Translations under genes and position numbers: made by a program | Source of the DNA: a virus | Lineage: Duplodnaviria; Caudoviricetes | IMG/VR virus record: IMGVR_UViG_3300037195_001642 | Span: 1-39,568 of that record | Length of the DNA stretch: 39,568 bases | Reading direction: 5' to 3' (one strand) | Shown: positions 11,493 to 38,689 of the stretch, one piece after another | How the letters are laid out: each line of letters starts with the position of its first letter | Numbering within the stretch: position 1 is the stretch's first letter | The notes under the pieces: model-generated | What the model was told of the DNA's origin: nothing | What the model saw: only the letters and a program-made list of their open reading frames with translations | Databases searched by the model: none

Positions 11493-11508
11493 TTATTAAT
11501 CCTTTCCT

Positions 11509-11823: not shown

Positions 11824-11881
11824 CTTCCCTCTTAACTTTTATTTGTACTTGCCCAAGTTATTTTATTCTAGCATCACACTA

Positions 11882-11908
11882 AAAATATAACAACGTTTGT
11901 TATATTTT
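11882..11908. promoter_or_regulatory. Palindromic operator between divergent spoVG and methylase genes
   Basis: aaaatataacaa-cgt-ttgttatatttt, perfect 12-bp arms. Confidence 0.75.
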
Positions 11909-11930
11909 GATGTATACTTAATTAATCACA

Positions 11931-13124
11931 ATGTTTTTGGTAGAAGAAAGGATAACTATAAATATGAAAAATAAAATGAGTGTTGTGAGCGTAGATATTG
12001 GGTGCTTGAATGATTCGGAATATAATCCTCGTAAACTCACTAAAAAGCAGTTTCAAGACATAAAAAATAGCCTCACAAAGTATGGATTTGTTGAGAACAT
12101 AGTTGTAAATGAAAACAAAGATAGAAAAAACATAATTATAGGGGGTCACCAAAGGGTGAGAGTGGCGAAGGCTATGGGGATGAAAAATATACCTGTTCAT
12201 TATGTGGATATAGGTGACATTAAACAAGAGAAAGAGTTAAATATAAGGTTGAATAAAAATAGTGGTGAATGGGATTGGGATCTACTGGCTAATATATTTG
12301 ACGAAACCGACCTTATGGATTGGGGTTTTGATGATGATGACCTGCAATTCAAAGAACTCGATACAGTTGAAGGATTAACGGACGAAGACGATGTACCCGA
12401 GGCACCTGAAGACCCTATTACAAAACAGGGTGATTTATGGCTACTTGGTGAGCATCGAGTCCTATGCGGGGATGCTACAAAGAAGGAAGATGTTGAACGA
12501 TTGATGGATGGGCAGAAGGCTGATATGGTTTTTACTGACCCCCCTTATGGATATAAATATTTAAGTAATAGATGTTCTCAATCAAAACATAAAGAAATAT
12601 TGAATGATGATAAAATTCTTGATTTTTTACCAGCGTGTAAAAAATTTATGTTAGAAAATTCAACAATTTATGTCTGTGGTTCATTTCAAACAATAAGTAA
12701 ATGGATTGAATATGTTTCAAAACATTTTTTTTATAAAAACTTAATAGTCTGGAAAAAAAATAATTGGTCAATGGGTGATTTAAAAGGTTCTTTTGCTGGA
12801 CAACACGAATTAATAATTTTTGCCAATCAAGGTAAAGTTGAGATTTTAGGTAAAAGAGATACTGATGTATGGGAATTTAATAAAGAAACACCTAAATTGC
12901 ACCCAACACAAAAACCAATAGAATTAATAGAATTTGCTATGAGTAAATTTAAAGGTGGTATAATTTTAGATTTATTTGGTGGCTCTGGTTCAACACTAAT
13001 AGCTTGTGAAAAAACAAACAGAAATTGCTATATGATGGAACTAGACCCACATTACTGTGATGTGATAGTTAAACGCTGGGAAGATTATACTGGGAAGGAA
13101 GCTACTTTATACGGCAACTCCTAA
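11931..13124 (+). CDS. ParB-like N-terminal domain fused to an N6/N4 DNA methyltransferase
   Basis: YNPRK...GGHQR (ParB-like); TDPPY, HPTQKP and DLFGGSGSTL methylase motifs. Confidence 0.92.
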   Translation: MFLVEERITINMKNKMSVVSVDIGCLNDSEYNPRKLTKKQFQDIKNSLTKYGFVENIVVNENKDRKNIIIGGHQRVRVAKAMGMKNIPVHYVDIGDIKQEKELNIRLNKNSGEWDWDLLANIFDETDLMDWGFDDDDLQFKELDTVEGLTDEDDVPEAPEDPITKQGDLWLLGEHRVLCGDATKKEDVERLMDGQKADMVFTDPPYGYKYLSNRCSQSKHKEILNDDKILDFLPACKKFMLENSTIYVCGSFQTISKWIEYVSKHFFYKNLIVWKKNNWSMGDLKGSFAGQHELIIFANQGKVEILGKRDTDVWEFNKETPKLHPTQKPIELIEFAMSKFKGGIILDLFGGSGSTLIACEKTNRNCYMMELDPHYCDVIVKRWEDYTGKEATLYGNS

Positions 13125-15881: not shown

Positions 15882-16094
15882 CTAACTCCTTTTTTTCTTC
15901 TCATATTTTTTATTTGCAAAATAAGTTTCTAATCTCTGAATCGCTTGTAACTTGGATGTTTCCACTAACATTTTATTTAAGTCCACGCAGTCCTTGGCAA
16001 GACAATTTTTAACTGCATTAAACTGGATTTCACTTTGTTCTTTTAACTCATTAATTAATAACTCCTTAGATATTGACTCCATAGGCCCTCTCAA
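15882..16094 (-). CDS. Small hypothetical protein following the portal
   Basis: About 66-70-aa helical ORF coupled to the portal stop. Confidence 0.6.
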   Translation of the reverse strand: MRGPMESISKELLINELKEQSEIQFNAVKNCLAKDCVDLNKMLVETSKLQAIQRLETYFANKKYEKKKRS

Positions 16095-18183
16095 GAATCG
16101 CTTTTTGTTTTATAATTTCAATATCGGAATCTGCTTTCGCTTCGTATTTTTCTGCTGCCTTGGTAATCTCCCGTTGCATATCTGCATCTTTTTTATTTTC
16201 ATCTAACTGAGTGATCATCATTCGCATTTGATCTTCTTCTTGTAATCGTCTGCTCTCTTGTTGCTGTTGCTGTTGCTGCATTTCTTGTTCTGCTTCCTGA
16301 ACCTCAGCCTCTGAATAGAATAGACCTTCGCTATCCTCCTTTATCCCAAACGATCTTAAGAACCTTTCAGTTAGCTCTCGATAATCTATGCGTTTCGCTA
16401 ATGGTGGTAATACCTGTGACAATTCAAACAATGATCGATATCCTACTTGGTGTGCTTGCTCATTATTTAGCTCTACAGTTCCTAATACACTAATGATAGG
16501 TCTAAAGACCATGTCCTTCATGGAAAAGGTTGGTACAAGCTCAATCTGGCCTGTCTCAGGGTTTTGCTGTTCTTCTACTAAGCCTTTGTTTTGTAATTCC
16601 TCCATATTCCAGACTTTTAATAGATCTTCTTCTGTTTTGAATTGGAGGTTCCTTTCAAATATCATTTCTAGGAAAGGCTTGATCTCTCGTTCTATTGTCG
16701 AGACAATAATCTCATTGAGGGGAATATCATTTTGTTGGATGACCATTGCAGTACCACTAGCAGTTTTAGGAACTAATCGTGAATCGGTCGAACCTTCTTG
16801 GACAGGTGATTGTGACCATAACTTATCGAGATCCCTTTCAATAAAAACAATGCTCTCGGATGTTACGTTGCCAAGGTAAGGATTTAATATTGGAGCCAAT
16901 CCACCTTGACCTTGTCCCTTTACTAACCCATTCGGTCGCCACGTCTTATCCCACTGGATATTCATATCTGTATTCTGATACCACATAGGACTAATAGACC
17001 GAGTCTTTGCATCAACCATTTGGGCTCTAGCTGCGTTTAATTCTTGTATTAGGTTATATGATTTTATTACGTTTGACTCCCCGTAAAAACAACCTGAAAT
17101 GGGTTTATATTTACCCGCAATGAAAGGACGGTTATATCTAATATGTCGGAAAGGCGACTTTTCTTTGCGGATTATGACATGCCCATTCGCTATAGTGACA
17201 ACGCATTCCTGTGGTTTACCGTCGTCGTCAATATCATACAGACCCCAACATTCTAGGATATCGATTATACCCGTCTTCTTCTGGTCCTTTAACTTTTTTT
17301 CATATGCTTGCTGAGACACTTCGCCCAGCCCTAGGTTCTGTAGATACGCAGTCTGCTCTGTCGTTAAACCGTTCCCCTGTAACTCAATTAAGTTGAGGTT
17401 ATAATACGTTCCCTTTTCCTCGTATCTAACTCGCTCTTTTTCAGTTTCTTCAAATATACCTATCTCATTATCTTCCCAATTAGATTCCTCAATATCAGAT
17501 TCAATAACCTTTTCTTTTCGTTTTGCATCTGCTCTTAAATCTTCCATGCTGATGGTAGTTGAATGAATATTTGCGAGAGAGTCGTATAGCCGTTCTTTAG
17601 ATAAATCAGTGTAAAATTCTTCTAATAGTAATGGCCTATAGTAAGTATTGTCTTTTACTACTACTTCTTCTTCTTCTTCATCATCAAAATAGCTGAACTC
17701 TTTTACTTCATATTCATTGGTTATCTTTGCAATAGAGGTACCGAGTATTATTTTATTTTTTTGGTTATTTTTAAATTCCTCAACAAACCCAATCTCATTG
17801 ATTTGATATTCAAATATAAATTTGTTCCAAAGCTCGACTATCTTTTCATCGAGGGTACGAGCGACCTTGTCTTGTGGTGACTCTATTCTCCCAAAGGGAT
17901 AGGAACTAAATAATGATCGATTGATCCGTGATGTAACTCCGTTGACTTTAGAGTCTATTATTGGGACACGAATATTGGATCGGCCTTCGTATACCTTATC
18001 TATTTTATTATTATTGAAATATAAATCTCTAGCGTTTCGCCATTTCCCTTCCCATTCACCACGATCATCTTCGTATTTCTTTTTTAGTTCTAAAAAATAG
18101 TTTAGACACTCCCTATCGTATTGAGTGTCTACATTAAATTCGTTATCAAACTCATCGTTCTGATCAGTTGTATCGTAGGCCAA
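16066..18183 (-). CDS. Portal protein (podovirus/P22-like)
   Basis: About 705 aa after terL; KIILGTSIAK, RPFIAG...FYGES, KTASGT and Gln-rich C-terminal barrel; likely start is TTG at 18183 (GGAG upstream) rather than 18210. Confidence 0.88.
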   Translation of the reverse strand: MAYDTTDQNDEFDNEFNVDTQYDRECLNYFLELKKKYEDDRGEWEGKWRNARDLYFNNNKIDKVYEGRSNIRVPIIDSKVNGVTSRINRSLFSSYPFGRIESPQDKVARTLDEKIVELWNKFIFEYQINEIGFVEEFKNNQKNKIILGTSIAKITNEYEVKEFSYFDDEEEEEVVVKDNTYYRPLLLEEFYTDLSKERLYDSLANIHSTTISMEDLRADAKRKEKVIESDIEESNWEDNEIGIFEETEKERVRYEEKGTYYNLNLIELQGNGLTTEQTAYLQNLGLGEVSQQAYEKKLKDQKKTGIIDILECWGLYDIDDDGKPQECVVTIANGHVIIRKEKSPFRHIRYNRPFIAGKYKPISGCFYGESNVIKSYNLIQELNAARAQMVDAKTRSISPMWYQNTDMNIQWDKTWRPNGLVKGQGQGGLAPILNPYLGNVTSESIVFIERDLDKLWSQSPVQEGSTDSRLVPKTASGTAMVIQQNDIPLNEIIVSTIEREIKPFLEMIFERNLQFKTEEDLLKVWNMEELQNKGLVEEQQNPETGQIELVPTFSMKDMVFRPIISVLGTVELNNEQAHQVGYRSLFELSQVLPPLAKRIDYRELTERFLRSFGIKEDSEGLFYSEAEVQEAEQEMQQQQQQQESRRLQEEDQMRMMITQLDENKKDADMQREITKAAEKYEAKADSDIEIIKQKAILERAYGVNI
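16837..16909. repeat. 73-bp exact repeat, inverted copy at 29317-29389
   Basis: Reverse complement is identical over 73 nt; both copies encode QGGLAPILNPYLGNVTSESIVFIE. Confidence 0.97.
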
Positions 18184-18225
18184 TTGGTGACTCCAGCAAA
18201 AAAGATTCAAATGTTTAACTGTTTA

Positions 18226-18309
18226 ACTTGGATTGAGAAGGTAGGACACATAAAGTCTGTTGCATCTACTCTAGAACACACAACAACGTCCTACCTTCTC
18301 AATCCAAGT
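18226..18309. repeat. Perfect 22-bp inverted repeat (hairpin) in the portal leader
   Basis: acttggattgagaaggtaggac (18226-18247) and gtcctaccttctcaatccaagt (18288-18309). Confidence 0.95.
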
Positions 18310-18348
18310 AATGTCACTTCTTGGTGCTTAAATTTCTTGGTGCTTAAA

Positions 18349-18369
18349 TTATAACAAAACTTGTCATAA
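18349..18369. promoter_or_regulatory. Palindromic operator with minus-strand extended -10 upstream of the portal
   Basis: ttataacaa-aac-ttgtcataa; TGTTATAAT on the minus strand. Confidence 0.7.
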
Positions 18370-21944: not shown

Positions 21945-22041
21945 AAAGGAGATTTAAATATGTGAAATTTGGAGCTAGACGACTACGTATGTGAACTCTG
22001 GTACAGCTTATAATAATATTAATTGAAAAGGAGATTTAAAA

Positions 22042-22443
22042 ATGAATGATAAAAAATATTATATACAAGTTCTTGAAGAAGGAGGATTTTTATATCAAAA
22101 CACGATACAATATTATTACCCGATTAAAGATGATGGTACGATCGAACCGCTTCAATCGACCCGCATTGACAAATTAACAAACCGCAACGTTATAATAACT
22201 AATAAACAATCGGGTTACGGATATGGTTGGGATGGATTCACCGGTTGCAAGCAAAACAATAAAAGTTGCGGTGAGTTATGCGGTCTAAATATAAATGAAT
22301 TATACCAATGTATATCATGTGGCGGACAGTTTCCAGAATGGGAAGATGCATGTATGGAAGGTGGGGAACGTATTTGTCAAATTTGCTGGGATGATGATTC
22401 TGTGTGTGATAATTCACCGCTTGAAATAAAAGGAGATAAATGA
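22042..22443 (+). CDS. Hypothetical Cys-rich (zinc-finger-like) protein
   Basis: CISC...CQIC pairs; SD AAGGAG. Confidence 0.7.
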   Translation: MNDKKYYIQVLEEGGFLYQNTIQYYYPIKDDGTIEPLQSTRIDKLTNRNVIITNKQSGYGYGWDGFTGCKQNNKSCGELCGLNINELYQCISCGGQFPEWEDACMEGGERICQICWDDDSVCDNSPLEIKGDK

Positions 22444-22446
22444 AAA

Positions 22447-22815
22447 ATGAACACAAACAAAAAAAAATATTCGTTTTGGTACCTATGGGAAGGAGGCGAA
22501 CAAGATGGGCAGATGTTCCCAGCGGACTATGTAGTAGGTGGTGAAAAAACAAATTTATGTAAAATAGAGTGGTTCACGCAAGATGATATGCTCACCCATT
22601 TTACTGAATTAGTCGATTATTATAAATATGACTCAAGTAATTCCGCCCCAGAGGGCTGTGCAATAGGCGTATTTGTCACAGAATACAATAAGGGAGATGA
22701 ATTGTGTTACAACAGTATCTTCCCGAAATGGCGTTGTATCGGGGAAATGAAAGAGGTATGCACGGCTATATGGGATAGGGAGGACTGGAATTTTAGGTAT
22801 CCCCTCCCATACTAA
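22447..22815 (+). CDS. Hypothetical protein
   Basis: 122-aa ORF with SD. Confidence 0.7.
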   Translation: MNTNKKKYSFWYLWEGGEQDGQMFPADYVVGGEKTNLCKIEWFTQDDMLTHFTELVDYYKYDSSNSAPEGCAIGVFVTEYNKGDELCYNSIFPKWRCIGEMKEVCTAIWDREDWNFRYPLPY

Positions 22816-22905
22816 AAATTTTAAATAGACTTCGGGGAATTGTTGGTCTGGACACTCAAAATAGGGCAGATGTCTATTTAGAATCTTTAGTATGGGAGGG
22901 GATAC
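22797..22905. repeat. 34-bp inverted repeat (32/34) with 41-nt loop
   Basis: 22797-22830 versus reverse complement of 22872-22905. Confidence 0.92.
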
Positions 22906-22925
22906 ATAAAAAAGGAGGATTAAAA

Positions 22926-24213: not shown

Positions 24214-24247
24214 TCTAACAAAGTATAAAACTATAAAAAGATAAACC

Positions 24248-24276
24248 TTGACACACTATTACTGGTAAGTTATCAT
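24248..24276 (+). promoter_or_regulatory. Sigma70-type promoter, probably producing a leaderless mRNA
   Basis: TTGACA-17 nt-TATCAT; ATG only 6 nt after the -10 and no SD. Confidence 0.7.
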
Positions 24277-24282
24277 TCTATT

Positions 24283-24483
24283 ATGATTAAAACTGACGAA
24301 TTTATCAAGAGCTGTTATTGCGAGATGGAAAAGTCAAACGTATCTATTCGGCAACTTTATTTCAAATTAGTGAAGCTAGGATACGAAAGAACCTATGCTA
24401 CACTTTGTAATACAATGAAGTGTGAGTATCGACCAGATGGCGAAACTATTTTAGCATTAAATGCATATTTTAAAATTTTGTAG
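24283..24483 (+). CDS. Cro/XRE-like small regulator
   Basis: 66 aa; SIRQL...YATLCN..YRPDGETILALNAYF resembles XRE HTH. Confidence 0.6.
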   Translation: MIKTDEFIKSCYCEMEKSNVSIRQLYFKLVKLGYERTYATLCNTMKCEYRPDGETILALNAYFKIL

Positions 24484-24539
24484 GAGCTTTTTTGCGTATT
24501 TATATACTCAGTGCTAATAGGATGGAGGTGACGAAATAA

Positions 24540-24824
24540 ATGACAAATGATTACGAGAGGATGCTGACCCAAAAAATGATGGTTGAGCAGCTCCAAGAGA
24601 TTAATAGTAAATTGGATCTAATATTTAAATTTCATGATTCGATTAAGATTTCTCAGAACGAAGCAGCCAAAATATTAAGTGCATCATTTAGAACGATCCA
24701 ACATTACGAGAAAGAAGGTTTACTTACCAATGAATCGGGAAAGGAGGGAAGAAAAGAGTTTAGTTTAAAAAATGTATTCGATATATATTACATACGAAGT
24801 TTAAAAAAAGGAAAAGTAAAATGA
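24540..24824 (+). CDS. MerR-type HTH / excisionase-like protein
   Basis: ISQNEAAKILSASFRTIQHYEKEGLL; SD GGAGGTGA. Confidence 0.75.
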   Translation: MTNDYERMLTQKMMVEQLQEINSKLDLIFKFHDSIKISQNEAAKILSASFRTIQHYEKEGLLTNESGKEGRKEFSLKNVFDIYYIRSLKKGKVK

Positions 24825-25051
24825 AAAAAGAGAAAGAAAAAACGCCCTGCTCGAACAAGGCGTTTCGGTCAAATAAATCAGTTCATGATTCAGTTAAGAA
24901 GTCTATCAGATTGAAGCGTGTGTGTCAAAATAGTGGTATTCCACAAACGCCAAAATATGATTGGGAAGCACCTCTGTGGGCAGGACATGAGGACCAAATT
25001 ATTGATGCTTTTGAAAGATTTTATGAAGAAGAAGGAGCCTGCCATGCATGA
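24821..25051 (+). CDS. Hypothetical protein
   Basis: 76-aa ORF, ATGA-type coupling on both sides. Confidence 0.55.
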   Translation: MKKEKEKTPCSNKAFRSNKSVHDSVKKSIRLKRVCQNSGIPQTPKYDWEAPLWAGHEDQIIDAFERFYEEEGACHA

Positions 25052-25520
25052 AGAAGAAAAGGATAAATATGGGAACCCCATACGCCTAAATATTGAAGAA
25101 TATACGGTGGTCGAAGAGTCTTACGATGAAATTATGGATTTTGAAAACGCTATATATAAAAAAATAGGGTATGAGATGCCAGAGCATCATGACCATTTTT
25201 TAAGAGGCATGAAAGTTGCTTTTGAGTTTATGATGGGAGAATATGACACGCTCGATAATGTTTTATCTTTATGGTGCGACGAAGGTTATGATGAAATGAG
25301 GTGGGGACACAGAAAAACATTGCCATCTATTACAACCCTTAGAGATAGATTGATTAGATCTAATAAATATAATTTTTTATTGGAGAGCAAAATTAGAGAG
25401 CGTTTAAAAGAGAACGACGATTGGTATTCAAAATATGAAAAGGATAGCCCTACAATGAGGCTCCACAAACCTCATTATACGCATGACGAAATTAAAGAAC
25501 AGATTGGAGATAAAACATGA
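25044..25520 (+). CDS. Hypothetical protein
   Basis: Likely start MHEEEK at 25044 after AAGGAG (track ORF 24918-25520). Confidence 0.7.
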   Translation: MHEEEKDKYGNPIRLNIEEYTVVEESYDEIMDFENAIYKKIGYEMPEHHDHFLRGMKVAFEFMMGEYDTLDNVLSLWCDEGYDEMRWGHRKTLPSITTLRDRLIRSNKYNFLLESKIRERLKENDDWYSKYEKDSPTMRLHKPHYTHDEIKEQIGDKT

Positions 25521-26122
25521 TAAAAGAGAAAAACATATATAAGAAGTTAACCCTTATTCAAAATGAATTGAAGGTTCCTAAGTCCAACGTTAATAATTTT
25601 GGTAAATATTCCTATCGAAGTATTGAGGATATAGAAGCCAAATTAAAGCCGTTATTACTGGCACATAATTGTACAGTCCATATCATTGATGAAATAGTTC
25701 AAATAGGGGATCGGTATTATTTGAAAGCAACTGCAATTTTCATTGATATTGAAACTGGTGAGTCCATAGAGAACACTGGATTTGCTCGTGAGGCTTTAGA
25801 AAAGAAGGGAATGGACATGGCACAATTAACTGGAGCATGTTCCTCTTATTCTCGCAAATATAGCTTAGGTGGGTTATTTCTAATTGATGATACAACCGAC
25901 CAGGATTCAATGGACAATACAAGCACCACGTTAAAAGAGAAGTCTACTGAGGAGGTAGAATTTGATTTTAAAGAGAATGAATTCAAAGAAAAGCCAATAA
26001 TAAAAACATGTGCTTGTGGGGGTACTATTAAGGGGCCTTGGCCAACTTGCTATAACTGTAAGATTGCCAAAGATGAAAATGAATTGGCTCCTGCACCAAT
26101 GGATGGCAGCTATTCGTATTAA
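25517..26122 (+). CDS. erf: ERF-family single-strand annealing protein with C-terminal Cys4 motif
   Basis: IQNELKVPKS..N.FGKYSYRS.EDI, AQLTGACSSYSRKYSLGGLFLIDD..DQD; CACG...CYNC. Confidence 0.92.
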   Translation: MIKEKNIYKKLTLIQNELKVPKSNVNNFGKYSYRSIEDIEAKLKPLLLAHNCTVHIIDEIVQIGDRYYLKATAIFIDIETGESIENTGFAREALEKKGMDMAQLTGACSSYSRKYSLGGLFLIDDTTDQDSMDNTSTTLKEKSTEEVEFDFKENEFKEKPIIKTCACGGTIKGPWPTCYNCKIAKDENELAPAPMDGSYSY

Positions 26123-26152
26123 TATAAAAAAATTAAACTTAAGGGAAAGATA

Positions 26153-26302
26153 ATGCAAATTTACAACTTTATATTGGGAATGTGGGACTCTTTTTGGTCT
26201 ATTCCTACTCATAATCAGATCATCTTACTAATAGCCGTGTCGTATATAGTCATAGGGCCATTTTATAGTTATAAGATCATGAATCAGAGGCAAGATAAGT
26301 GA
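26153..26302 (+). CDS. 49-aa membrane peptide
   Basis: MQIYNFILGMWDSFW...IILLIAVSYIVIGPFY; stop overlaps the next start (GTGA). Confidence 0.5.
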   Translation: MQIYNFILGMWDSFWSIPTHNQIILLIAVSYIVIGPFYSYKIMNQRQDK

Positions 26303-27288
26303 AACCATTTATAATGATAGAGAAGCATATAATGGAAAAACCGTGGGCTAGAGACCCACGGAATTTTTACGTCTACTATTACCTTCGATCTAACGCAAAC
26401 TATACATCTGAAGAGAGTAATGACATTCTAATTAAGCGTGGACAAATACTGACCTCTCTAAGGGAAATATCAAAAAAAACATATATCCCAAAAAACACTG
26501 TTGATAGAATTTTAAAAACACTTGTAAAGCACCATGAAATTTCGATAGATAGAAATGGTAACTCTACTATCATTACGATATTGAATTATGAAATTGATGA
26601 CAAAAAAGAAGGGGTTGGGACACCTTTCGGGACACCTGAAATTGAAGAAAGTGGGACACCCTTACAGTCTGATTTCCAGGCTCAAATTGATGATAAAATG
26701 ATAGAAAAAACAGACAATGTGGGACACCCTAAAACAGACAATGTGGGACACCTTTCGGGACACCTTCCTAATGTAACTCTCTTAAGTTACTATCTCTTAA
26801 CTAATATAAATAATATAACAAACACTGCGTGTGTGCGTGATAAGGCTTCTTTCAAAAAAAGTCAAGAAAAAAAATATTTATGGACGTTTACAATTCCACC
26901 AGAAGAGCTTACGGGACCGATCCAACACGATATCGGAATTTATCGAAGAGAGACCCTAAAGAACATGTTTAAAAACTGGCCAATAGGTAAAAGGCCCAGT
27001 GTAAGAATCGAATTTATTAATCAAATTGAGTCTAAAATTGAATTGAGATCCTACGAGATCATTAATTTATTTGAAAAGAGTTTTGTTAAAACACATAATC
27101 GAATATTAGAATCCTTAAAATTAAAGTGGAATAATGAGCCCGAAGTTCTGGTTGATGAAAATCAAATGAAAAAACAAATTGCTCAGTTTTGGCCAAGCTT
27201 TGAAAATTATTTAAAAGATCCGTTTAAGGACCTATCCGATGAATCGTCTGAGAGGCTCCAAATTTTAGTTGTAACGTCTAATTCATAA
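26299..27288 (+). CDS. Replication initiator / replisome organizer (lambda O-like)
   Basis: IKRGQILTSLREIS..TVDRILK..TIITILNY winged-HTH followed by an iteron-bearing linker. Confidence 0.85.
   Translation: MKPFIMIEKHIMEKPWARDPRNFYVYYYLRSNANYTSEESNDILIKRGQILTSLREISKKTYIPKNTVDRILKTLVKHHEISIDRNGNSTIITILNYEIDDKKEGVGTPFGTPEIEESGTPLQSDFQAQIDDKMIEKTDNVGHPKTDNVGHLSGHLPNVTLLSYYLLTNINNITNTACVRDKASFKKSQEKKYLWTFTIPPEELTGPIQHDIGIYRRETLKNMFKNWPIGKRPSVRIEFINQIESKIELRSYEIINLFEKSFVKTHNRILESLKLKWNNEPEVLVDENQMKKQIAQFWPSFENYLKDPFKDLSDESSERLQILVVTSNS
26617..26764. repeat. Replication origin iterons (GGGACACC x6)
   Basis: GGGACACC at 26617, 26629, 26653, 26721, 26745 and 26757 inside the initiator gene. Confidence 0.8.
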
Positions 27289-27305
27289 AGGAGGAATGTA
27301 ACGCT

Positions 27306-27791
27306 ATGGATTATTTTCAAAAGTGGGAAGAGCGAGAAAATAAGGCTGATCAACAAATTAAAACTGTTTATGAGCAACAAACTTGTCCGATAACCCAAAT
27401 ATTGGTAGAATTAAAAAATCACGTAGGGTCAAGAATGACCGGGGTCACAATGAAAACTTGGGTAGATGCTATAAAAAAAGAAGCTATTGAACTTGAAGAA
27501 TTAGAGATATTTTTAGAGGACTTTAAGTCAAATAAAATTGACAATAAAAAATTTAAGTTGAGTATTTTTAATTTGATAGAATACATCAATAAAAAGCGAC
27601 AATCTAAAGAAAAAAAGTTTTATAATAGTACCCAAACAGGAAAGACATATGAGGCTAGTGAAAGGGGGTATGAACAAGAGAAAATAGACATAGATAATAT
27701 GCCAATGGGTGATAGAGATATTCACAATTGGAACAGGTGGTTTAAGGGGTCTAAAATATTAACGAATAGTGGGAGATCTTGTGATGGATGA
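27306..27791 (+). CDS. Hypothetical protein (possible helicase loader/inhibitor by position)
   Basis: Follows the initiator; SD AAGGAGG. Confidence 0.6.
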   Translation: MDYFQKWEERENKADQQIKTVYEQQTCPITQILVELKNHVGSRMTGVTMKTWVDAIKKEAIELEELEIFLEDFKSNKIDNKKFKLSIFNLIEYINKKRQSKEKKFYNSTQTGKTYEASERGYEQEKIDIDNMPMGDRDIHNWNRWFKGSKILTNSGRSCDG

Positions 27792-28158
27792 TTTTGATAT
27801 GGACAATTTATTAGATTGGCAACAGAAATGGTTAACGAGGTCATCTAGACCGAATCAAATACCAAATTGGAATATAAATATTGATATGGAAGATGCTGTT
27901 AGGTATCCAAACGGTGATCCAGTTCTAGTTTTAAAACAAGATCAATATAATCATATATTTCGATTGCCGTATGATTTAATTAGCCTAAACACTCATTTAA
28001 AAATGGAAGAGTTGGTTGATTTTGAAGGCGGAAAGTGTCTTTTAGAAGAAGAAGAAACTTTTGAGTTCAATGAATTTGAATTCCAAATGTTCTATAATGA
28101 AAACTATACAAATGCCGAACCCAATATCCAAAGTAAAACATCGTACGTCTGGAGTTGA
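27769..28158 (+). CDS. Hypothetical acidic protein
   Basis: About 125-aa ORF in operon. Confidence 0.6.
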   Translation: MGDLVMDDFDMDNLLDWQQKWLTRSSRPNQIPNWNINIDMEDAVRYPNGDPVLVLKQDQYNHIFRLPYDLISLNTHLKMEELVDFEGGKCLLEEEETFEFNEFEFQMFYNENYTNAEPNIQSKTSYVWS

Positions 28159-28516
28159 CAAATATAAACGGTCAGTCCCAGAATCTACTCATTTACAGAT
28201 ATGTTTATATATGTTAAAGCTGAATGGTATTACAGCATGGCGTTGTAATACTGGTGGAGCTAAATATAAGAATAAAGATGGTAGCTATAGGACTGTCAGA
28301 TATGGTGTTAAAGGTTTACCTGATATTATGGGTTATACTAGCAAGGGCCAATCTTTTTTTTGGGAGGTTAAAAAATATGGTGGGAAGCCTACAAGAGAAC
28401 AATTAAACTTTCTCGAAAATGCCTTAGAGAATAATTGTTTAGGTGGCTGGGGTACTTCCGATGTCCTAGAAAAATATCTTAAATTTGTCTACAAAAAGAA
28501 CGAAAAATTAATTTAG
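28061..28516 (+). CDS. VRR-NUC family nuclease / resolvase
   Basis: WRCNTGG...GLPDIMG...FWEVK..GKPTREQLNFL; true start probably later (about 28112). Confidence 0.88.
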   Translation: MSSMNLNSKCSIMKTIQMPNPISKVKHRTSGVDKYKRSVPESTHLQICLYMLKLNGITAWRCNTGGAKYKNKDGSYRTVRYGVKGLPDIMGYTSKGQSFFWEVKKYGGKPTREQLNFLENALENNCLGGWGTSDVLEKYLKFVYKKNEKLI

Positions 28517-28611
28517 TTGTTTTGCCATTTTTTTTGTATCAAAAAGACCTCTGTTTAAATTAAAGGTAACTGTTATAATTAGATCATCAACTACGAGGAG
28601 ATGAATAAAAA

Positions 28612-29070
28612 ATGACAAATATAGATGCAATGACAAATATAGATGCTCTGAATGATGGTTTAACCCCATTACACCTGGCTGCTATGCAAGGAGATCTTCC
28701 ACGAGTAAAAAGTCTTTTGACCAAAACATGTAGGGGTGAGGACTCTTATTTATTGGATAATGAAGGGGCAACGCCACTACATTATGCGTCTCTTAATGGA
28801 CATTTAGACGTCGTTAAAGCAATCTACGAAAAATTTTCAGGGGATGACCCTAATCCAGGTGATTATGACGGAGAAACACCGCTAAACTATGCTTCTCTTA
28901 ATGGACACGGTGAAATTGTTACCTTGATTACAGAGATGCAGAAGTTATTCAATAATCAAAAATCTAAGATTTGTAAGAAATGTCAGCGAAAATTAAGAAA
29001 AAGAAATATATTCAATGAGTTACAAAAAGGAGGTTGTAAAGGAGGTTGTGATGAATCTATTAAAATGTGA
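28612..29070 (+). CDS. Ankyrin-repeat protein
   Basis: Three repeats: GLTPLHLAA, GATPLHYASLNGH, GETPLNYASLNGH; own TGTTATAAT (28571) and SD. Confidence 0.93.
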   Translation: MTNIDAMTNIDALNDGLTPLHLAAMQGDLPRVKSLLTKTCRGEDSYLLDNEGATPLHYASLNGHLDVVKAIYEKFSGDDPNPGDYDGETPLNYASLNGHGEIVTLITEMQKLFNNQKSKICKKCQRKLRKRNIFNELQKGGCKGGCDESIKM

Positions 29071-29584
29071 ATACATTTATGGGAATACGGCTATGGATTT
29101 CGGAAAGAAATTAAAAAAAATGAGGGCCGATAGGGGGCTTTATCAACGAGATATTGCACGATTTTTGAATTTAAGGGGTAACTCCTATATAGCAGGCGTA
29201 GAGTTAAATAATCAATCAGCACCAGTTTATTCTAAATTAAAAAAAATCTTGGATTACTTTGCTACCATCAAACGAGTGCCGGAGTATGAGGTATTGGATG
29301 TCCTTGAAATGGCAGCTCAAGGTGGATTGGCTCCAATATTAAATCCTTACCTTGGCAACGTAACATCCGAGAGCATTGTTTTTATTGAAGTCTATCGGAA
29401 AGACGGACCACGACGATCTGAAGATGATAGGGAACTGATGGATGCCATTAAAGAATATCGCAAAAAGTGTATGCAGTCTGGTGATCTAAATCCTGAATTA
29501 ATAGCTATTGTTGATGAACTGGCAGATCTTCCTATAGAGAAATATGACTCGGTACTTCGTATTATTAAGGATCTAAAAAATTGA
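29051..29584 (+). CDS. XRE-family HTH regulator carrying a portal-derived insertion
   Basis: FGKKLKKMRADRGLYQRDIA...YIAGVE; paralog of 29652-30074; start after duplicated SD aaaggagg. Confidence 0.85.
   Translation: MNLLKCEYIYGNTAMDFGKKLKKMRADRGLYQRDIARFLNLRGNSYIAGVELNNQSAPVYSKLKKILDYFATIKRVPEYEVLDVLEMAAQGGLAPILNPYLGNVTSESIVFIEVYRKDGPRRSEDDRELMDAIKEYRKKCMQSGDLNPELIAIVDELADLPIEKYDSVLRIIKDLKN
29317..29389. repeat. 73-bp exact inverted copy of portal 16837-16909
   Basis: Direct base-by-base comparison. Confidence 0.97.
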
Positions 29585-29651
29585 TTGATTGATAATAAAA
29601 ATTAGATGATAATAAGAATGCTTGTGATTGTTAAAAAAATTAAATAGGGAG

Positions 29652-30074
29652 ATGACGATGCAAAAATATGATTGTGATGATAACACATTTGGGGATCTAT
29701 TGAAGAATTGGAGAAAGAGAGAGTGCTTCACTCAAGAAGACCTTTCGGAAGAACTTGGTTGGTCTGGCAATTCGTTTATCAACCGATTGGAGAATGGCGT
29801 TAATAACCCCCCAAATTTCCGCACTCTGAAAATATTAGGAAGATTACTTAACCTAAATTCACATGATCTGACCGAGTTTTACCGGCAATCCTTTTTAGAT
29901 CGTTTAGATGCCGATCAGCGTGAACATTTAGATGCTGTTAAGGATACCTTTAAAGAGACCATTAAAAATGATGGCTTATCACCACAGTTTCAAAAAATTT
30001 GTGACCTATTAGCAGATGTTAGCCCTAAGAAATATGACGTGATAATCGCAATGATAGAGAATCTTCTGAAGTAG
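29652..30074 (+). CDS. XRE-family HTH regulator (candidate repressor)
   Basis: FGDLLKNWRKRECFTQEDLSEELG..SFINRLENG..P. Confidence 0.88.
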   Translation: MTMQKYDCDDNTFGDLLKNWRKRECFTQEDLSEELGWSGNSFINRLENGVNNPPNFRTLKILGRLLNLNSHDLTEFYRQSFLDRLDADQREHLDAVKDTFKETIKNDGLSPQFQKICDLLADVSPKKYDVIIAMIENLLK

Positions 30075-30359
30075 CTAAGTCTTCTTTCATGAGAAAACCG
30101 AAACGTATATTTAAAATACGAGTCATAACTTTATCTCTCAATTTATTCTTAGATGTTGGTCTCTTTGTTTCCAGCTTATACATAATATATCCCCTTAATA
30201 TTTGCCCCTAAATAGTCAATAAACATTATTAATATTATCATCAAAATACTAAATCAGTCTAATGAACATTTATCATTATGTCATTAAATGGTATTATAAA
30301 CTATACAATAATATGTGATGTATTAAATTGGCTTTTGGTAAAATGGGTGATGATTAAAT

Positions 30360-31364
30360 ATGGCTTTTTTAACTCAAGACAGAGGCGTTTATGGTATTTA
30401 TGAACGTTCAAAAAAGAAGGGGAAGTGGCGTAATGTACGTATCCTTAAGCTTGGTAATATAACCAAAAAGGAAGCGCAGTTACAATTTACACGATGGATG
30501 GATGCCAATCAATTGAATATTTCAAGCAATGTATCTTTTTCTGTTGCTATAAGCAAATTCAAAAATAATTTGAAAATAAAAATACGAGAAGGAACATTAA
30601 AAGAAAATACTCTAAAATTACATTTCTATTTTCTTGACCGCTATATAAACAAATTTTTTGTCATTAATAAAATAAATATTAGAAACGTTAACTATCAAGC
30701 TATTGAAGAATTCAAACGATACATGGATCAATTTGATATTAAGAATAGAACAATTAATCTTTCATTAAATACCCTCTCTCTTTTTCTAAAATATTGTGTG
30801 AGGATGTCCATAATATCCAATATTCCACCAATAGACCGATTAAAAAATATAGAGAAGGAAATTGAACGGCTTACATTGGACGAATGTAAAATTCTGATTG
30901 CTCATTCAAATGAAAACTTAAGCTTTTATATCCAACTACTACTCTTTTCTGGGATGCGTCCCTTTGAAGCCAACAATTTATTGTGGAGTGATGTAAACTT
31001 CCCAAGTAAAACAATACATATTAAATCTGAAAATAAATACAAAAGAGGGCGTAAGTTTTATATGCACCCTGAACTATATGCCCTTCTAATCCAATATCCT
31101 AATAAAAAAGAATATGTTTCGCCTTATAAAAAGAGTGATAGCACTAGATCATCATTTAGAGCGCTCTATAAAAAAACAGGTATCAATGCAACCTCTAAGA
31201 TATTTAGAGCTACGTTTGCTTCAATATGGGCCGAAAATGGAGGGCCTTTAGATAAACTATCTTTATATCTTGGTAATAGTCCCGTCGTTCTAAAAAAATA
31301 TTACGCTAATATTGAGGCGGACTCATTTAAGAATGATATTCATCTAATGCCGTCATTGTCTTAA
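30360..31364 (+). CDS. int: Tyrosine integrase
   Basis: SGMRPFEA (R), IFRATFAS (R), LGN and YY (Y); adjacent attP. Confidence 0.92.
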   Translation: MAFLTQDRGVYGIYERSKKKGKWRNVRILKLGNITKKEAQLQFTRWMDANQLNISSNVSFSVAISKFKNNLKIKIREGTLKENTLKLHFYFLDRYINKFFVINKINIRNVNYQAIEEFKRYMDQFDIKNRTINLSLNTLSLFLKYCVRMSIISNIPPIDRLKNIEKEIERLTLDECKILIAHSNENLSFYIQLLLFSGMRPFEANNLLWSDVNFPSKTIHIKSENKYKRGRKFYMHPELYALLIQYPNKKEYVSPYKKSDSTRSSFRALYKKTGINATSKIFRATFASIWAENGGPLDKLSLYLGNSPVVLKKYYANIEADSFKNDIHLMPSLS

Positions 31365-31373
31365 GATTTGGGG

Positions 31374-31526
31374 CTGAGAGAGAGAGGCATAAAGTTTTCA
31401 GTGATGTAATATAAAACTGGTTATGAGATATATCACGCATTCAAATTTTAAAGTGATGAAAAACAAAGAGTTTACTGACTATTTGTTAAAAGTTCTTTAA
31501 GTGTAGTAGCTGCTTCTCTCTCTCAG
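31374..31526. repeat. 16-bp inverted repeat enclosing about 120 nt just after the integrase
   Basis: ctgagagagagaggca and tgcttctctctctcag (15/16, the difference is a G-U pair). Confidence 0.8.
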
Positions 31527-31587
31527 ATGATGATACAACATAAAAAATCTTGGGCAGGCCTTTTATGTCTTTTAGTTCTTATAAATA

Positions 31588-31612
31588 AAATATAACAAGG
31601 TTTGTTATATTT
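31588..31612. promoter_or_regulatory. Palindromic operator near attP
   Basis: aaatataacaa-ggt-ttgttatattt, perfect 11-bp arms. Confidence 0.75.
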
Positions 31613-31911: not shown

Positions 31912-32117
31912 ATAAAAATGTTTGTTATATTAGGGTTAGGTTATGAGATGGGGATATACTTTGGACTTATACTCCACAATGTTTGCTAAGTAAAAGTGAT
32001 AATAAAGGGTAGGTTGGGTTACAGATGATAGTAATGACGATGTGGCTCGTAACCTAAAATTTAGAGTCCTAGGGTACCACTCCCCAATGTGTGTTCCCTA
32101 GGATTTCTATATCTATT

Positions 32118-32210
32118 AGTATGTTTGGGCGCAAAGATATACGATTATAAGTATGTTTGTGTGCAAAGATGTACGATTATAAGTGCGTTTGTGTGCAAAG
32201 ATGTACGATT
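32118..32210. repeat. 32-bp tandem repeat, about 3 copies
   Basis: agt(at/gc)gtttg(ggc/tgt)gcaaagat(a/g)tacgatt(ata) units at 32118, 32150 and 32182. Confidence 0.92.
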
Positions 32211-32701
32211 TATAAAGGTATATTAATGAGGAGTGTTGCTTCCCCATTTAAAATGGTAGCTGTTTTTGATTTAAAGGGTGACGGATAATTATATACTGCA
32301 GTTTTAAATGGATAATAAAGAAATTTTATTTCAGCAAAGCCTATCTTGGTTTCAAAGCCCATGATAAAAGCATATGTATCTATAATATAAGAAGGTCTAT
32401 CTGTTACATCTACTCTAGAACACACATATGCAAGACCTCCCGTAAAATTTAGTTTTAGTTGTTCGGGTCTTTTATTTCTGAATAAAAGATGTAATTTCCA
32501 ACCCTCTTCTTTTACCTTACCTAAAGCTATATTAGTGGAATCGTTATAACTATAATAAGCAACACCAAAATGTGTTGTTTCTGTGTTAAATGAAATTCCA
32601 CCATACAGATCCTCGTAAAATAACCCCAGATCTATATCAGTAGCAAAAACATTTAAAGAAAATAAGAATACTAAAAATAGCGACAGAATTAGTTTCATCA
32701 C
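32210..32701 (-). CDS. Exported protein, possibly a small outer-membrane beta-barrel
   Basis: Signal peptide MKLILSLFLVFLFSLNVFA followed by alternating aromatic/Gly beta-strands. Confidence 0.6.
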   Translation of the reverse strand: MMKLILSLFLVFLFSLNVFATDIDLGLFYEDLYGGISFNTETTHFGVAYYSYNDSTNIALGKVKEEGWKLHLLFRNKRPEQLKLNFTGGLAYVCSRVDVTDRPSYIIDTYAFIMGFETKIGFAEIKFLYYPFKTAVYNYPSPFKSKTATILNGEATLLINIPL

Positions 32702-35948: not shown

Positions 35949-36947
35949 TCATAGTGAATTTAAAACTCGTATAGTAAATGATTCGGGTCTCAATATTTTT
36001 TTTATGACGTAAATACTCTCATCGGCATTACCCAGCATCTGCGTAAACCATACCTGTAGACGAGTAGTATAAACATCACTTGAATTAAAAAATCCAGTGA
36101 GTCCCATTTCGGCATAAATGTTTCCACATGCAAATTCAAATTCAGCGGTAGCAAGAGAAGCAGGCGGTGGATTTATGAGACAATCGACAAAGTCAGCATC
36201 ACTCAAATTAAGATCATCATAATTGAATGTTGCAAAGGCAATCTCAATTGTTTTTGTTGAAAAGGTAGCTGGTAATACAGGTGTACTTAAATCCGCAAAA
36301 GTAAATTCATAATAAGGGCCAGTTCTTGAGGAGCCTCCGATAGCATCAGTCGTGGACTCTAAAATAGTATCGTAAAGGTTCATATTATATGATCCTTCAA
36401 CGTTTGCTGGAATACCATTTAAGATATTGGAATCGTTAAAATCTGATAATTGGCCAGCACTCCATGTATAAGAGTGGTTTGAGGTAAGATATGTATTTAA
36501 AGGTACTATTTCAGCGGTATAGGTATCGGGTATCATCGATTGATACGATACAAATGCAGCCCTCATCATAGTTTGAGCTGTTGAATCTGCTAAAATTGCT
36601 GGGTTAGAGTTGGCATCATCGAAAGCATCTCTCATACTCTTTCGGAAGCCCGAACACACAGTAATGGAGTGGGCTACCCTTCCCGTCGTTGGAATGGAAA
36701 TATTTCCTGTCCCGTCAAATCCTTGTGGAGTCCCAACAATATTTTCTGTTAGTCCTATTGTTCTAGAAGTTTCTAGTTGGGTACTCGTGGTAGCATTTCC
36801 GATAAGGTCTCCTGTCACTTGATTGACATTGAGAGTCTTTGTCCCATCACTTAACCCGTCAGTAACAGCCAAAATATTATTATTAAGCCGGGAAGGATAT
36901 AATAACTCACCATTCATCCATGTATGCGATGCTTCAATAAACGCCAT
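35949..36947 (-). CDS. Tail fibre/spike protein 1
   Basis: SHTW..RLN..DGLSDGTKTLN..GNATT..FDGT N-terminus. Confidence 0.75.
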   Translation of the reverse strand: MAFIEASHTWMNGELLYPSRLNNNILAVTDGLSDGTKTLNVNQVTGDLIGNATTSTQLETSRTIGLTENIVGTPQGFDGTGNISIPTTGRVAHSITVCSGFRKSMRDAFDDANSNPAILADSTAQTMMRAAFVSYQSMIPDTYTAEIVPLNTYLTSNHSYTWSAGQLSDFNDSNILNGIPANVEGSYNMNLYDTILESTTDAIGGSSRTGPYYEFTFADLSTPVLPATFSTKTIEIAFATFNYDDLNLSDADFVDCLINPPPASLATAEFEFACGNIYAEMGLTGFFNSSDVYTTRLQVWFTQMLGNADESIYVIKKILRPESFTIRVLNSL

Positions 36948-38689
36948 TATTCTTCCTCTAGATCTTCCATGATATATTCTCTTTCTAAAATATTTTCTAT
37001 TTCTGGTGCAGCTTTCTTTAGTTTTGGTGCAACTTTCTTTAGATCTTTCTTTAGTAAGAGCTTTCTTTTTGGTTTTGGTTTTATTCCACTAGCCTCTTGT
37101 CTAGCCTTTTTTATACCCTTTTTTCTTTCCCGTTCAAGACTTCCTTTAACTACTTTTTTCCTAATAGGACGTAGAAAAGCATCTACCGTACTCTTTACTA
37201 TTTCTGTCTTACGACCACCATAAGGAAGGGTTTCCAAAATACCTGGATTTGTACCAAAATGTTTGTTCCATGATGTCCATCCAGAAATTGTATCAAACTC
37301 TTTTAAGGCTCTCCTAGTAAACTTATTAGGATATTCTTTTAAGACTCTTACTATTTCAGTTACTTCTTGGTCTGCAAGGTTCTTCAAAGCAAATCTTTCT
37401 CCTCCACCTAATTTTTCCAACTCCGTTGTTTTTTTCCCAAAAGCTTTTAGTTTATTGTGAAGTCCTTTTGCTGCTTCATCATATTCTTTAGAAACAGCCC
37501 CTAATTTTTTTCTGAATAGTCTTCTAACTACTTGCATCCCCCTATCTCTTACCGATCCTCTTTTTATAGCAGCGTAATCAATCGCTCCATCTAGTGCCTT
37601 TATATAATTATATAGCTCTAAAGGAATCATTTTTATTGGTTCAGGTGGAAATAATGGTAGTCCCTTCTCAGTAACCATTTCATCTAGAACACCACGAGGC
37701 GGTCTTTTTTTAAGTTCTTTAATAATTTTGCCCAAGAGTGGTTTTGATGTAAACTCGGTAACTTTTCCTGTTTTATCTAATAATGCCAAATCATCGAGTT
37801 GAGGTAATATTTCGTCTAATAATTCACGAGTATCAAATGTAACATCTTCTGGTATTTTCTCTATCGCCTTCTTCATTTTTTTAGCTTCATTTTTATATAC
37901 ATCGTTCATTGAATCCCTAAAATCATCCCCAACTTTTTTTATATATTCAGGGTCATTTAATTTCTTTATAGTTAAAGTTTTATTGCCTAAAGTAGAAGCA
38001 TTTTCAAACATCTGCTCTTTTACGGTTTTGAATGCGGCATTTGCTACCTCATCACCTAATTGCTGATCTTCTAATATTTCTTTAGCTATTTTTTTATCTG
38101 TTGCTATTTTATCTGTTGCTATTTCTTTTTCCGATTTTCTTAATAGCTTTTTAGCACCTGATAAATCCGGAGGTGCTTCCCAATCATAAACGCCTTTTGG
38201 CGTTTTTGGCGTTTTAGGTGCATACTTATCCACTATCTTAGCAAGTCTAGACAAACCTTCCTTAGCCGTAGCCTTAATGGTTTCTCTTTTTGCCATTCCA
38301 CGAGCTATTGGTCCTACCATTCTAAATGCTGCTGCACCAGGAGCTATTGGAGAAAAATATTCACCTGCCTTAGCTGCAACATGAGCTGCACGTGATTGAG
38401 GATAGTGTTTTGATTTCCCTGTTCGTTCAGCTACATCAACCCCTAAAAGACGTCCTAATTCATCTTGTGTGCGTTGGGCACCTTCTGATATTGAAAATGC
38501 AATGTCCTTTCCTGTTGCTAGTGCCTCCCCTGCAGCAATAGCCATAATTTCTTCTGTAGTTCCTTTTACATTAGTTTTATATTCTGGATATTTTTCTAAT
38601 ACCCTTGTAGCAAGCTTTAGAGTTTCTACTTCATCATACTCAGGATATTTTTCTTTTATACGTTCACCAAATTCAGTTAAAGTAACCAT
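36947..38689 (-). CDS. Probable large ejection/internal virion protein
   Basis: 580 aa, helical and Lys-rich; twin KYPEY N-terminal motif; lies between pilot-like and fibre genes. Confidence 0.65.
   Translation of the reverse strand: MVTLTEFGERIKEKYPEYDEVETLKLATRVLEKYPEYKTNVKGTTEEIMAIAAGEALATGKDIAFSISEGAQRTQDELGRLLGVDVAERTGKSKHYPQSRAAHVAAKAGEYFSPIAPGAAAFRMVGPIARGMAKRETIKATAKEGLSRLAKIVDKYAPKTPKTPKGVYDWEAPPDLSGAKKLLRKSEKEIATDKIATDKKIAKEILEDQQLGDEVANAAFKTVKEQMFENASTLGNKTLTIKKLNDPEYIKKVGDDFRDSMNDVYKNEAKKMKKAIEKIPEDVTFDTRELLDEILPQLDDLALLDKTGKVTEFTSKPLLGKIIKELKKRPPRGVLDEMVTEKGLPLFPPEPIKMIPLELYNYIKALDGAIDYAAIKRGSVRDRGMQVVRRLFRKKLGAVSKEYDEAAKGLHNKLKAFGKKTTELEKLGGGERFALKNLADQEVTEIVRVLKEYPNKFTRRALKEFDTISGWTSWNKHFGTNPGILETLPYGGRKTEIVKSTVDAFLRPIRKKVVKGSLERERKKGIKKARQEASGIKPKPKRKLLLKKDLKKVAPKLKKAAPEIENILEREYIMEDLEEE

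What the first reader, a model, noticed from the sequence alone, without database searches (positions are those of the whole stretch)
29317..29389. Exact 73-bp piece of the portal gene inserted in frame into an XRE repressor
Seen: 29317-29389 is the exact reverse complement of 16837-16909, and both are translated as QGGLAPILNPYLGNVTSESIVFIE. The adjacent paralog (29652-30074) aligns on both sides of this point but lacks about 30 residues, so the repressor looks like the recipient. Inference: this is a recent templated insertion from 12.4 kb away. Because the copies are inverted and in frame, recombination between them would flip the intervening segment and make reciprocal HTH-portal and portal-repressor fusions. 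Whether it is a switch, a displayed decoy peptide or a neutral scar is unknown.
Basis: partly seen in the sequence, partly recalled or inferred. Interest (0 to 1): 0.85.

Follow-up and report, generated by a model that had tools for sequence, protein, structure and literature searches.

The report
Portal scrap in rewired phage repressor
One lineage of a marine phage carries an exact 73-base copy of its own portal gene pasted in frame into its predicted repressor gene, next to an inversion that separates the repressor from its ancestral divergent partner gene; the copy is most likely a tolerated DNA-repair scar, not a flip switch or a decoy.

Summary
Observation confirmed: 29317-29389 is the exact reverse complement of portal 16837-16909, read in the same frame. 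It is real and derived. An independent contig carries it with the same flanks. Three runs show an empty allele, 9 of 9 aligned homologues lack it, and both forms occur in one sample. The event is larger than noted: 89 bp replace 2 bp (net 29 codons), comprising a 3-bp microhomology junction, 70 portal bases and 19 bases of unknown source. It falls in a predicted two-residue turn, and both domains are predicted to stay folded. The genome holds at least four other short self-copies: some out of frame, one intergenic, one probably copied into a virion gene. This argues for accidental templated capture filtered for open frames. Carriers also have 24224-29008 inverted, which breaks the ancestral divergent cro-like/repressor pair and puts the repressor behind an ankyrin gene. 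The proposed portal-repressor flip has no support, would split the only portal gene, and cannot be excluded with these contigs. The scan noted similar portal scraps in other phages. Verdict: real templated insertion of a known kind in an unusually rewired immunity region; function untested.

The parts
29317..29389 (+). 73-bp exact copy of the portal gene. The first 3 bases (TCA) are shared with the empty allele (microhomology); 70 bases are new.
29390..29408 (+). 19-bp filler of unknown source that completes the 89-for-2 replacement
   Evidence: no match over 11 nt in the window; 0 hits in viral contigs; 4 hits in GTDB against 4.3 expected, none extending into the flanks
16837..16909 (-). Donor segment in the portal gene, residues 435-458
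   Evidence: homologous segment present in the relative G001
16066..18210 (-). SU10/P22-like portal gene, single copy
29051..29584 (+). XRE repressor (cI-like by position), 177 aa with the insert and 148 aa without; the ORF is open from 29015
29658..30074 (+). Paralogous XRE gene without insert; the tandem pair is also in G001
24224..29008 (.). Segment (cro-like gene, excisionase-like gene, Erf, replication genes, nuclease, ankyrin gene) inverted relative to the ancestral arrangement; breakpoints near 24219-24224 and 29008-29039
   Evidence: joints and loose ends in X4, X8, X9; L006; outgroup G001
24283..24483 (+). 66-aa cro-like gene (named by size and position only; no Pfam or PHROG hit), with a TTGACA-17-TATCAT site at 24248-24276; divergent from the repressor in relatives
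28612..29070 (+). Ankyrin-repeat accessory gene, now directly upstream of and overlapping the repressor; extended -10-like site at 28571-28579
28921..28953 (+). Second exact self-copy: 33 bp of the head-tail adaptor gene (4182-4214), read in another frame
25517..26122 (+). Erf-family single-strand annealing protein, candidate catalyst of short-homology joins
   Evidence: Pfam ERF E 8.6e-36; role inferred
30360..31364 (+). Tyrosine integrase, full-length ORF (temperate gene set)

Best explanation
The 73 bases are an exact, recent copy of this lineage's own portal gene inside an 89-for-2 base replacement in the repressor gene, likely captured by accident as filler when a DNA break or stalled fork was rejoined through a 3-base microhomology, and likely kept because it leaves the frame open and falls in a predicted turn between two folded parts. 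Shown: exact copy, empty allele, direction, junction anatomy, the other self-copies, and linkage to the 24224-29008 inversion. Predicted: both repressor domains fold around a disordered 29-residue loop. Inferred: strand annealing or template switching (Erf is the candidate), selection for a full-length repressor, and expression of the repressor from the ankyrin gene's promoter or by read-through now that its ancestral leader is gone. The portal peptide as such likely does nothing.
For: Real: contig L004 (9 mismatches and one 30-bp gap against the window in 9.7 kb) carries the insert with identical 60-bp flanks. The 189-aa form is on 11 contigs from three sources. Unitigs run into the repeat from both repressor flanks in X2 and X4. 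Derived: joint 29319 to 29409 with 2 letters between in X8, X10 and X4 (sides 112, 119, 42); 9 of 9 aligned homologues lack the segment; G001 has the portal segment but no insert. Recent: 73 of 73 identical to this portal, whereas the portals of X9 and X10 differ at 3 of 72. Filter: only 1 of the 6 frames of the piece is stop-free; 9.4% of 50,000 random 60-100-nt pieces placed here keep the gene open; 42% of stop-free 69-nt pieces of this genome are in their native frame. Recurrent process: adaptor to ankyrin (33 bp, other frame), SpoVG-like gene to ORF 22042-22443 (36 bp, other frame), ORF 24821-25051 and tail gene 36947-38689 (same frame; G001's tail gene lacks those 15 residues), and an intergenic patchwork at 18226-18309 that X8 lacks. 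Fold: helices 78-92 and 95-114 in the empty allele; with the insert the same number of helices (8) and residues 93-121 under pLDDT 50.
Against: Microhomology is seen at one junction only, 3 nt is weak, and the 19-nt filler has no source. The template lies 12.4 kb away, not nearby. The site is a tight junction with no length variation in 9 homologues, so neutrality is not assured. The models rest on 9-10 sequences (mean pLDDT 69 and 80). In all data seen the insert travels with the inversion and a distinct HTH allele (8-11 residue changes in the HTH part against X10 and X4, from the 40 of 44 variant rows shown), so its own effect cannot be separated from theirs. No single raw read was available. 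The unitigs reach 30 letters into the repeat, one short of the tool's 31-letter rule for bridging.
Confidence: 0.6

Rival explanations
1. Selected regulatory change: the longer linker, with the inversion and the new HTH allele, alters repressor dimer geometry or stability and creates a new immunity type or a shifted lysis-lysogeny balance. The length of the insert would matter, not its portal origin.
For: Insert, inversion and HTH allele are linked. The carrier type is near-clonal across samples and occurs beside the ancestral type in X4 (depth about 27 against 19.5). The family has no natural loop at this site. Several rearrangements cluster in this one region.
Against: One linked haplotype cannot show which change was selected; hitchhiking explains the same pattern. 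The predicted recognition helix is the same in P0001 and P0002.
Confidence: 0.17
2. The repressor is decommissioned: the inversion removed its ancestral leader, the phage lost bistable control, and the insert is debris in a gene under relaxed selection.
For: The ancestral divergent leader is replaced at the breakpoint. The scan lists no promoter-like site within about 90 bases of the repressor start.
Against: Only about 9% of random inserts keep the frame open. No frameshift or stop is seen in the carriers. An extended -10-like site lies upstream of the ankyrin gene. The paralogue and integrase ORFs are full-length.
Confidence: 0.1
3. Decoy: the repressor displays a portal peptide that occupies a host portal sensor (Avs4/Avs11 type) or interferes with portal assembly.
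For: Native frame and an exposed loop. The two exact copies come from portal and adaptor, both known Avs triggers (bioRxiv 10.64898/2026.01.04.697583, passages read). The scan's notes on other phages report similar portal pieces (unchecked; my search words selected for them).
Against: The adaptor piece is in another frame. One self-copy likely went into a virion gene. The peptide is not a conserved patch: 17 of 24 identical to G001 (250 of 654 windows score higher) and 6 of 24 to G002 (512 of 576 higher). Avs sensors recognise folds over extended interfaces. There are no substitutions from which to read selection.
Confidence: 0.07
4. Programmed inversion switch between the two 73-bp copies, giving a roughly 368-aa HTH-portal and a roughly 522-aa portal-repressor fusion.
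For: The geometry allows it (inverted, same frame; lengths). Erf-type recombinases act on short homologies (PMC3945230, passages read).
Against: It would split the only portal gene. The repeat is not conserved in relatives. All 10 cluster members examined keep the parental flanks. No relative among proteins of 311-2000 aa (weak). No dedicated invertase was annotated.
Confidence: 0.03
5. Assembly chimera.
For: No listed unitig spans the whole insert; no raw reads were served.
Against: The same junctions appear in runs of several samples and in an independently assembled contig with its own SNPs. The 19-nt filler exists nowhere else in the genome.
Confidence: 0.02

Closest known systems
Templated insertions by microhomology-mediated template switching (MMBIR type; PMC8421209, abstract and outline seen)
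   Same: The insert copies a template elsewhere in the same genome, has a short microhomology at a junction, is composite, and sits next to a larger rearrangement.
   Different: Described there in human genomes and detected with nearby templates; here a phage, a template 12.4 kb away, one junction without microhomology, and an unknown enzyme.
Minihomology repair of cut phage DNA (T4 UvsX; PMC8262927, abstract and passages seen)
   Same: A phage recombinase joins DNA through 3-4 nt of identity.
   Different: The T4 products are mainly deletions, and the insertions named in the passages are 1-5 nt. Here there is a 70-nt templated capture, the phage encodes Erf rather than UvsX, and no cut site was shown.
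Phage mosaicism through Rad52-like recombinases (Erf, Red-beta, RecT; PMC3945230, passages seen) and protein-fragment shuffling (PMC10684548, abstract seen)
   Same: Temperate phage with Erf; a fragment shared by unrelated proteins; mosaic alleles of the HTH region.
   Different: Those exchanges are between genomes and use homologies of hundreds of bases or whole domains. This is a sub-domain copy within one genome, with donor and empty allele both in hand.
Lambda-type divergent cI/cro switch (general knowledge, recalled)
   Same: Relatives L006, X8 and G001 have a small gene divergent from an XRE repressor across roughly 90-100 bp, with early and replication genes behind it.
   Different: In the window the pair is separated by an inversion and the repressor lies at the end of the early block behind an ankyrin gene. 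There is no S24 peptidase domain; the C-terminal part is helical (weak Foldseek likeness to SinR and DdrO, E 0.0025 or worse).
DSAD1, competitive inhibitor of the tail-tube sensor DSR2 (PMC11087589, abstract seen)
   Same: Precedent for a phage protein occupying the site where a sensor binds a structural protein.
   Different: DSAD1 is a dedicated folded protein. Here a 24-residue predicted-disordered piece sits in a repressor, with no binding evidence.

Membership tests
MMBIR-type templated insertion | Insert is a copy of a template elsewhere in the same genome | tested here: met
   70 new bases identical to the portal gene
MMBIR-type templated insertion | Microhomology at the entry junction | tested here: met
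   3 nt shared by the donor and the empty allele; weak by length
MMBIR-type templated insertion | Microhomology at the return junction | tested here: inconclusive
   A 19-nt piece of unknown source lies between
MMBIR-type templated insertion | Template close to the break | tested here: not met
   12.4 kb away; so filed as 'works like', not as a member
MMBIR-type templated insertion | Made by polymerase template switching | not testable with these tools
   Annealing of a free fragment would leave the same scar
Site-specific DNA inversion switch (Gin/Hin type) | Dedicated invertase near the sites | tested here: not met
   49 ORFs scanned; the only site-specific recombinase is the tyrosine integrase
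Site-specific DNA inversion switch (Gin/Hin type) | Inverted sites conserved among relatives | tested here: not met
   Repressor copy absent in X8, X10, the second type in X4, P0002/P0005/P0006 and G001
Site-specific DNA inversion switch (Gin/Hin type) | Both orientations present in the population | tested here: inconclusive
   Contigs cannot phase a 73-bp repeat; no fused protein found (weak)
XRE/cI-like phage repressor | N-terminal XRE HTH | tested here: met
   PHROG 8 E 2.5e-7; predicted helices 17-73 at high confidence; Pfam score under the cut-off
XRE/cI-like phage repressor | Divergent from a cro-like gene, next to the integrase | tested here: inconclusive
   Met in L006 and G001; broken by the inversion in the window
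XRE/cI-like phage repressor | Binds operators and gives immunity | not testable with these tools
   Needs binding or reporter assays
Anti-defence structural mimic (DSAD1-like) | Copied part is a conserved patch of the trigger protein | tested here: not met
   Average or low conservation in two relatives
Anti-defence structural mimic (DSAD1-like) | Binds and blocks a host sensor | not tested
   Host unknown; no sensor in hand

The most novel reading that the evidence does not exclude
This phage lineage runs an active self-copying process that grafts 20-70-base pieces of its own genes at break points. One burst of it rebuilt the lysis-lysogeny switch: the cro arm was inverted away, the repressor came under the promoter of an ankyrin accessory gene and gained a portal-derived spacer, and a new immunity type arose that now coexists with its ancestor in the same seawater sample.
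Probability: 0.17. Interest if true: 0.68.

Novelty: new member of a known kind. Interest (0 to 1): 0.38.

Why it matters
It is a clean natural record of how short pieces of DNA are grafted inside a phage genome: donor, filled allele, empty allele and an outgroup are all available, with at least four sister events in the same genome. The more unusual part is the setting. A lineage seen in several marine samples has its cI/cro-type switch taken apart by an inversion, while a full-length repressor and integrase are kept. If insert and inversion create a new immunity type, the two types form a ready-made pair of alleles for testing how temperate phages escape their relatives' immunity. If the insert is neutral, the case warns against reading in-frame portal scraps as decoys or switches.

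Tried and rejected
Chance repeat: rejected. Ancestral segment: rejected. Antisense control of the portal: rejected, because both copies are in sense orientation to their genes. Structured RNA: no Rfam match in the window. Source of the 19-nt filler: none in the window or viral contigs; 4 GTDB hits equal chance. The alignment query gave one unrelated HTH locus, L007, dropped. Host: not found (integrase in GTDB; the 13 ankyrin homologues are only 32-41% identical). The portal has no PDB sequence hit and was not folded, so the place of the peptide in the portal structure is not shown. No RNA holder was listed. Of 12 listed runs, 7 were laid (X2, X3, X4, X8, X9, X10, X11). X9 and X11 do not cover the insertion site; for X3 only the left junction is among the pieces shown. 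Dimer formation of the insert-bearing repressor was not modelled and stays open. Ten paper searches listed, by title and start of abstract, no report of a portal segment inside a phage repressor; the library lacks most subscription papers and no supplements were read.

Full report
Setting. The window is a whole 39.6-kb virus record with a 162-bp end repeat. It encodes an SU10/P22-like portal, terminase, capsid and adaptor, an Erf annealing protein, two tandem XRE genes and a tyrosine integrase: a temperate phage, probably short-tailed. The runs that hold it are marine or aquatic metagenomes. The host was not found.

Observation. 29317-29389 is the exact reverse complement of 16837-16909, and both read the same 24 residues. 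The longest exact inverted match in 60 simulated genomes was 14-28 nt.

Is it real? In run X2, unitigs 28924-29346 and 29360-31600 enter the repeat from both repressor flanks, and the repeat itself is one 73-base unitig at depth 34.8 against 18-22 on its flanks. X4 shows both junctions. For X3 only the left one is among the pieces shown. These unitigs reach 30 letters into the repeat, one short of the tool's bridging rule, as expected where a 31-mer graph branches; none spans the whole insert. Spanning evidence comes from assembled records. L004 differs from the window by 9 mismatches and one gap yet has the insert with identical flanks, and the 189-aa protein is on 11 contigs. X2, X3 and X4 are three samples of two studies that may be one campaign.

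Direction, size and age. X8, X10 and a second type in X4 join 29319 to 29409 with two letters between. This matches the 148-aa proteins P0002, P0005 and P0006. So 89 bases replaced 2, a net gain of 29 codons. The first three bases of the repeat are shared by the donor and the empty allele; 70 portal bases follow; then 19 bases with no source in the window, in viral contigs, or beyond chance in GTDB. All 9 homologues aligned lack the segment (three near alleles, the paralogue and five distant proteins picked from 150 listed for long matches). The portals of X9 and X10 differ from the insert at 3 of 72 bases, so the copy is younger than those splits. At the 0.1% divergence between L004 and the window an unchanged copy is expected 93% of the time, so no gene conversion is needed.

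Effect on the protein. In the empty allele the site is a two-residue turn between helices 78-92 and 95-114. With the insert the model keeps eight helices and leaves 93-121 below pLDDT 50. The family shows no length variation there, so tolerance is predicted, not shown. Of the six frames of the piece only the native one is stop-free. Only 9.4% of random pieces placed here keep the gene open, and 42% of stop-free pieces of this genome are in native frame. 'In frame, same peptide' is therefore what selection for a full-length repressor would leave. It is not evidence that the peptide is used.

A recurrent process. Self-comparison finds further short copies between unrelated genes: 33 bp of the adaptor gene in the ankyrin tail (100%, other frame); 36 bp of the SpoVG-like gene in ORF 22042-22443 (94%, other frame; a second 18-bp match is near chance); a piece shared in frame by ORF 24821-25051 and the tail gene 36947-38689, where G001's tail gene lacks those 15 residues, so the virion gene is the likely recipient; and an intergenic hairpin at 18226-18309 built from pieces of two other genes, absent in X8. 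Adaptor and SpoVG donors are conserved in G001. G001 itself shows no such copies apart from tail paralogues and low-complexity or ribosome-binding-site-like matches (one control genome).

The larger rearrangement. L006 (92-96% identical to the window) and X8 have the 66-aa gene of 24283-24483 divergent from the repressor. The complete relative G001 has the same order, with replication genes on the other strand, so the window is the inverted form. X4 holds both types. One is the window type (depth about 27). The other has the ancestral leader, an empty repressor allele with 35 differences in 262 bases (depth 19.5), and the ankyrin tail joined to 24219; the ankyrin and portal sequences are shared. 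The breakpoints carry small indels and no inverted site. The repressor has lost its ancestral leader and now overlaps the ankyrin gene, which has an extended -10-like site. HTH alleles differ by 12-14 silent and 8-11 replacement codons (40 of 44 rows shown; one further replacement lies in the C-terminal part), so they are old variants, not decay. No record with the insert in the ancestral orientation, or with the inversion and no insert, was seen; linkage across the shared node 29058-29087 rests on matching depths.

Mechanism. Most likely the copy was captured as filler during rejoining through microhomology, with Erf as the candidate catalyst. Phage recombinases can join through 3-4 nt (PMC8262927, abstract and passages) and Erf works on short or diverged homology (PMC3945230, passages); templated insertions by template switching are described in PMC8421209 (abstract). 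The enzyme and the order of insert, inversion and allele change are inferred.

Rivals. A flip between the two copies would split the only portal gene. Cluster members keep the parental flanks and no fusion was found (weak), but the contigs cannot exclude a rare flip. A decoy has precedent in kind (PMC11087589, abstract), and portal and adaptor are Avs triggers (bioRxiv 10.64898/2026.01.04.697583, passages). Against it, those sensors read folds, the peptide is not a conserved patch, and the sister copies ignore frame and direction. A selected change of repressor geometry, or a dead repressor, remain open.

Novelty. Ten paper searches listed no such case (calls named under Tried and rejected; limited library). 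The scan's notes on other genomes describe several portal scraps judged to be scars and a few judged possible decoys (unchecked, and selected by my search words). This is a new member of a known kind. Its extra value is the empty allele in the same sample and the rewired switch. Interest 0.38.

Noticed in passing
window 24219-24224 and 29008-29039: Inversion that breaks the ancestral divergent cro-like/repressor pair. Position 24219 is the join point in three different arrangements (window, X8, second type in X4), which is unexplained and may mark a cut site or hot spot.
   Followed up: partly
window 28484-29070: Ankyrin-repeat accessory gene, skipped by a joint in X8 and without a hit in G001. 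Its tail holds a 33-bp adaptor copy, and the inversion appears to extend its C-terminus. Closest homologues are only 32-41% identical.
   Followed up: partly
window 18226-18350: Terminase-portal intergenic patchwork: perfect 22-bp stem matching a tail gene, 40-nt loop with 27 bp matching gene 32210-32701, then a 17-bp tandem repeat; X8 skips 107 bp here. No Rfam match.
   Followed up: partly
window 7475, 11887, 18351, 21302, 29612, 31592, 31912: Operator-like palindrome ATAACAA-N3-TTGTTAT: 9 matches at up to 2 mismatches against 0.65 expected, 7 of them between genes, one just before the second XRE gene.
   Followed up: partly
window 22060-22095 and 22226-22243: ORF 22042-22443 holds two pieces of the SpoVG-like gene (11509-11823), one inverted and one direct; X8 skips 22027-22913.
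   Followed up: partly
window 36947-38689: Virion or tail gene with several short inserts relative to G001, including a 15-residue piece shared with ORF 24821-25051 and a 5-residue tandem duplication.
   Followed up: partly
window 29026-29049: 12-bp tandem duplication in the ribosome-binding region of the repressor, only in the inverted type.
   Followed up: no
window 29652: A in the window but C in 5 of 5 laid runs that cover it; the paralogue likely starts at 29658.
   Followed up: yes
window 7501-13124: Block of three glycosyltransferases, a methyltransferase and a SpoVG-like gene, conserved in G001, followed by a ParB-DNA methylase gene without a hit in G001.
   Followed up: no
window 22791-22911 and 32114-32209: A 43-bp inverted repeat with 35-nt spacing, and a 3 x 32-bp tandem repeat downstream of the integrase.
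   Followed up: no
run X3, window 29058-29087 and 29421: Unitigs break at the same nodes where the ancestral allele branches in X4, which suggests a minor ancestral-type population in that sample too; no joint was listed.
   Followed up: no
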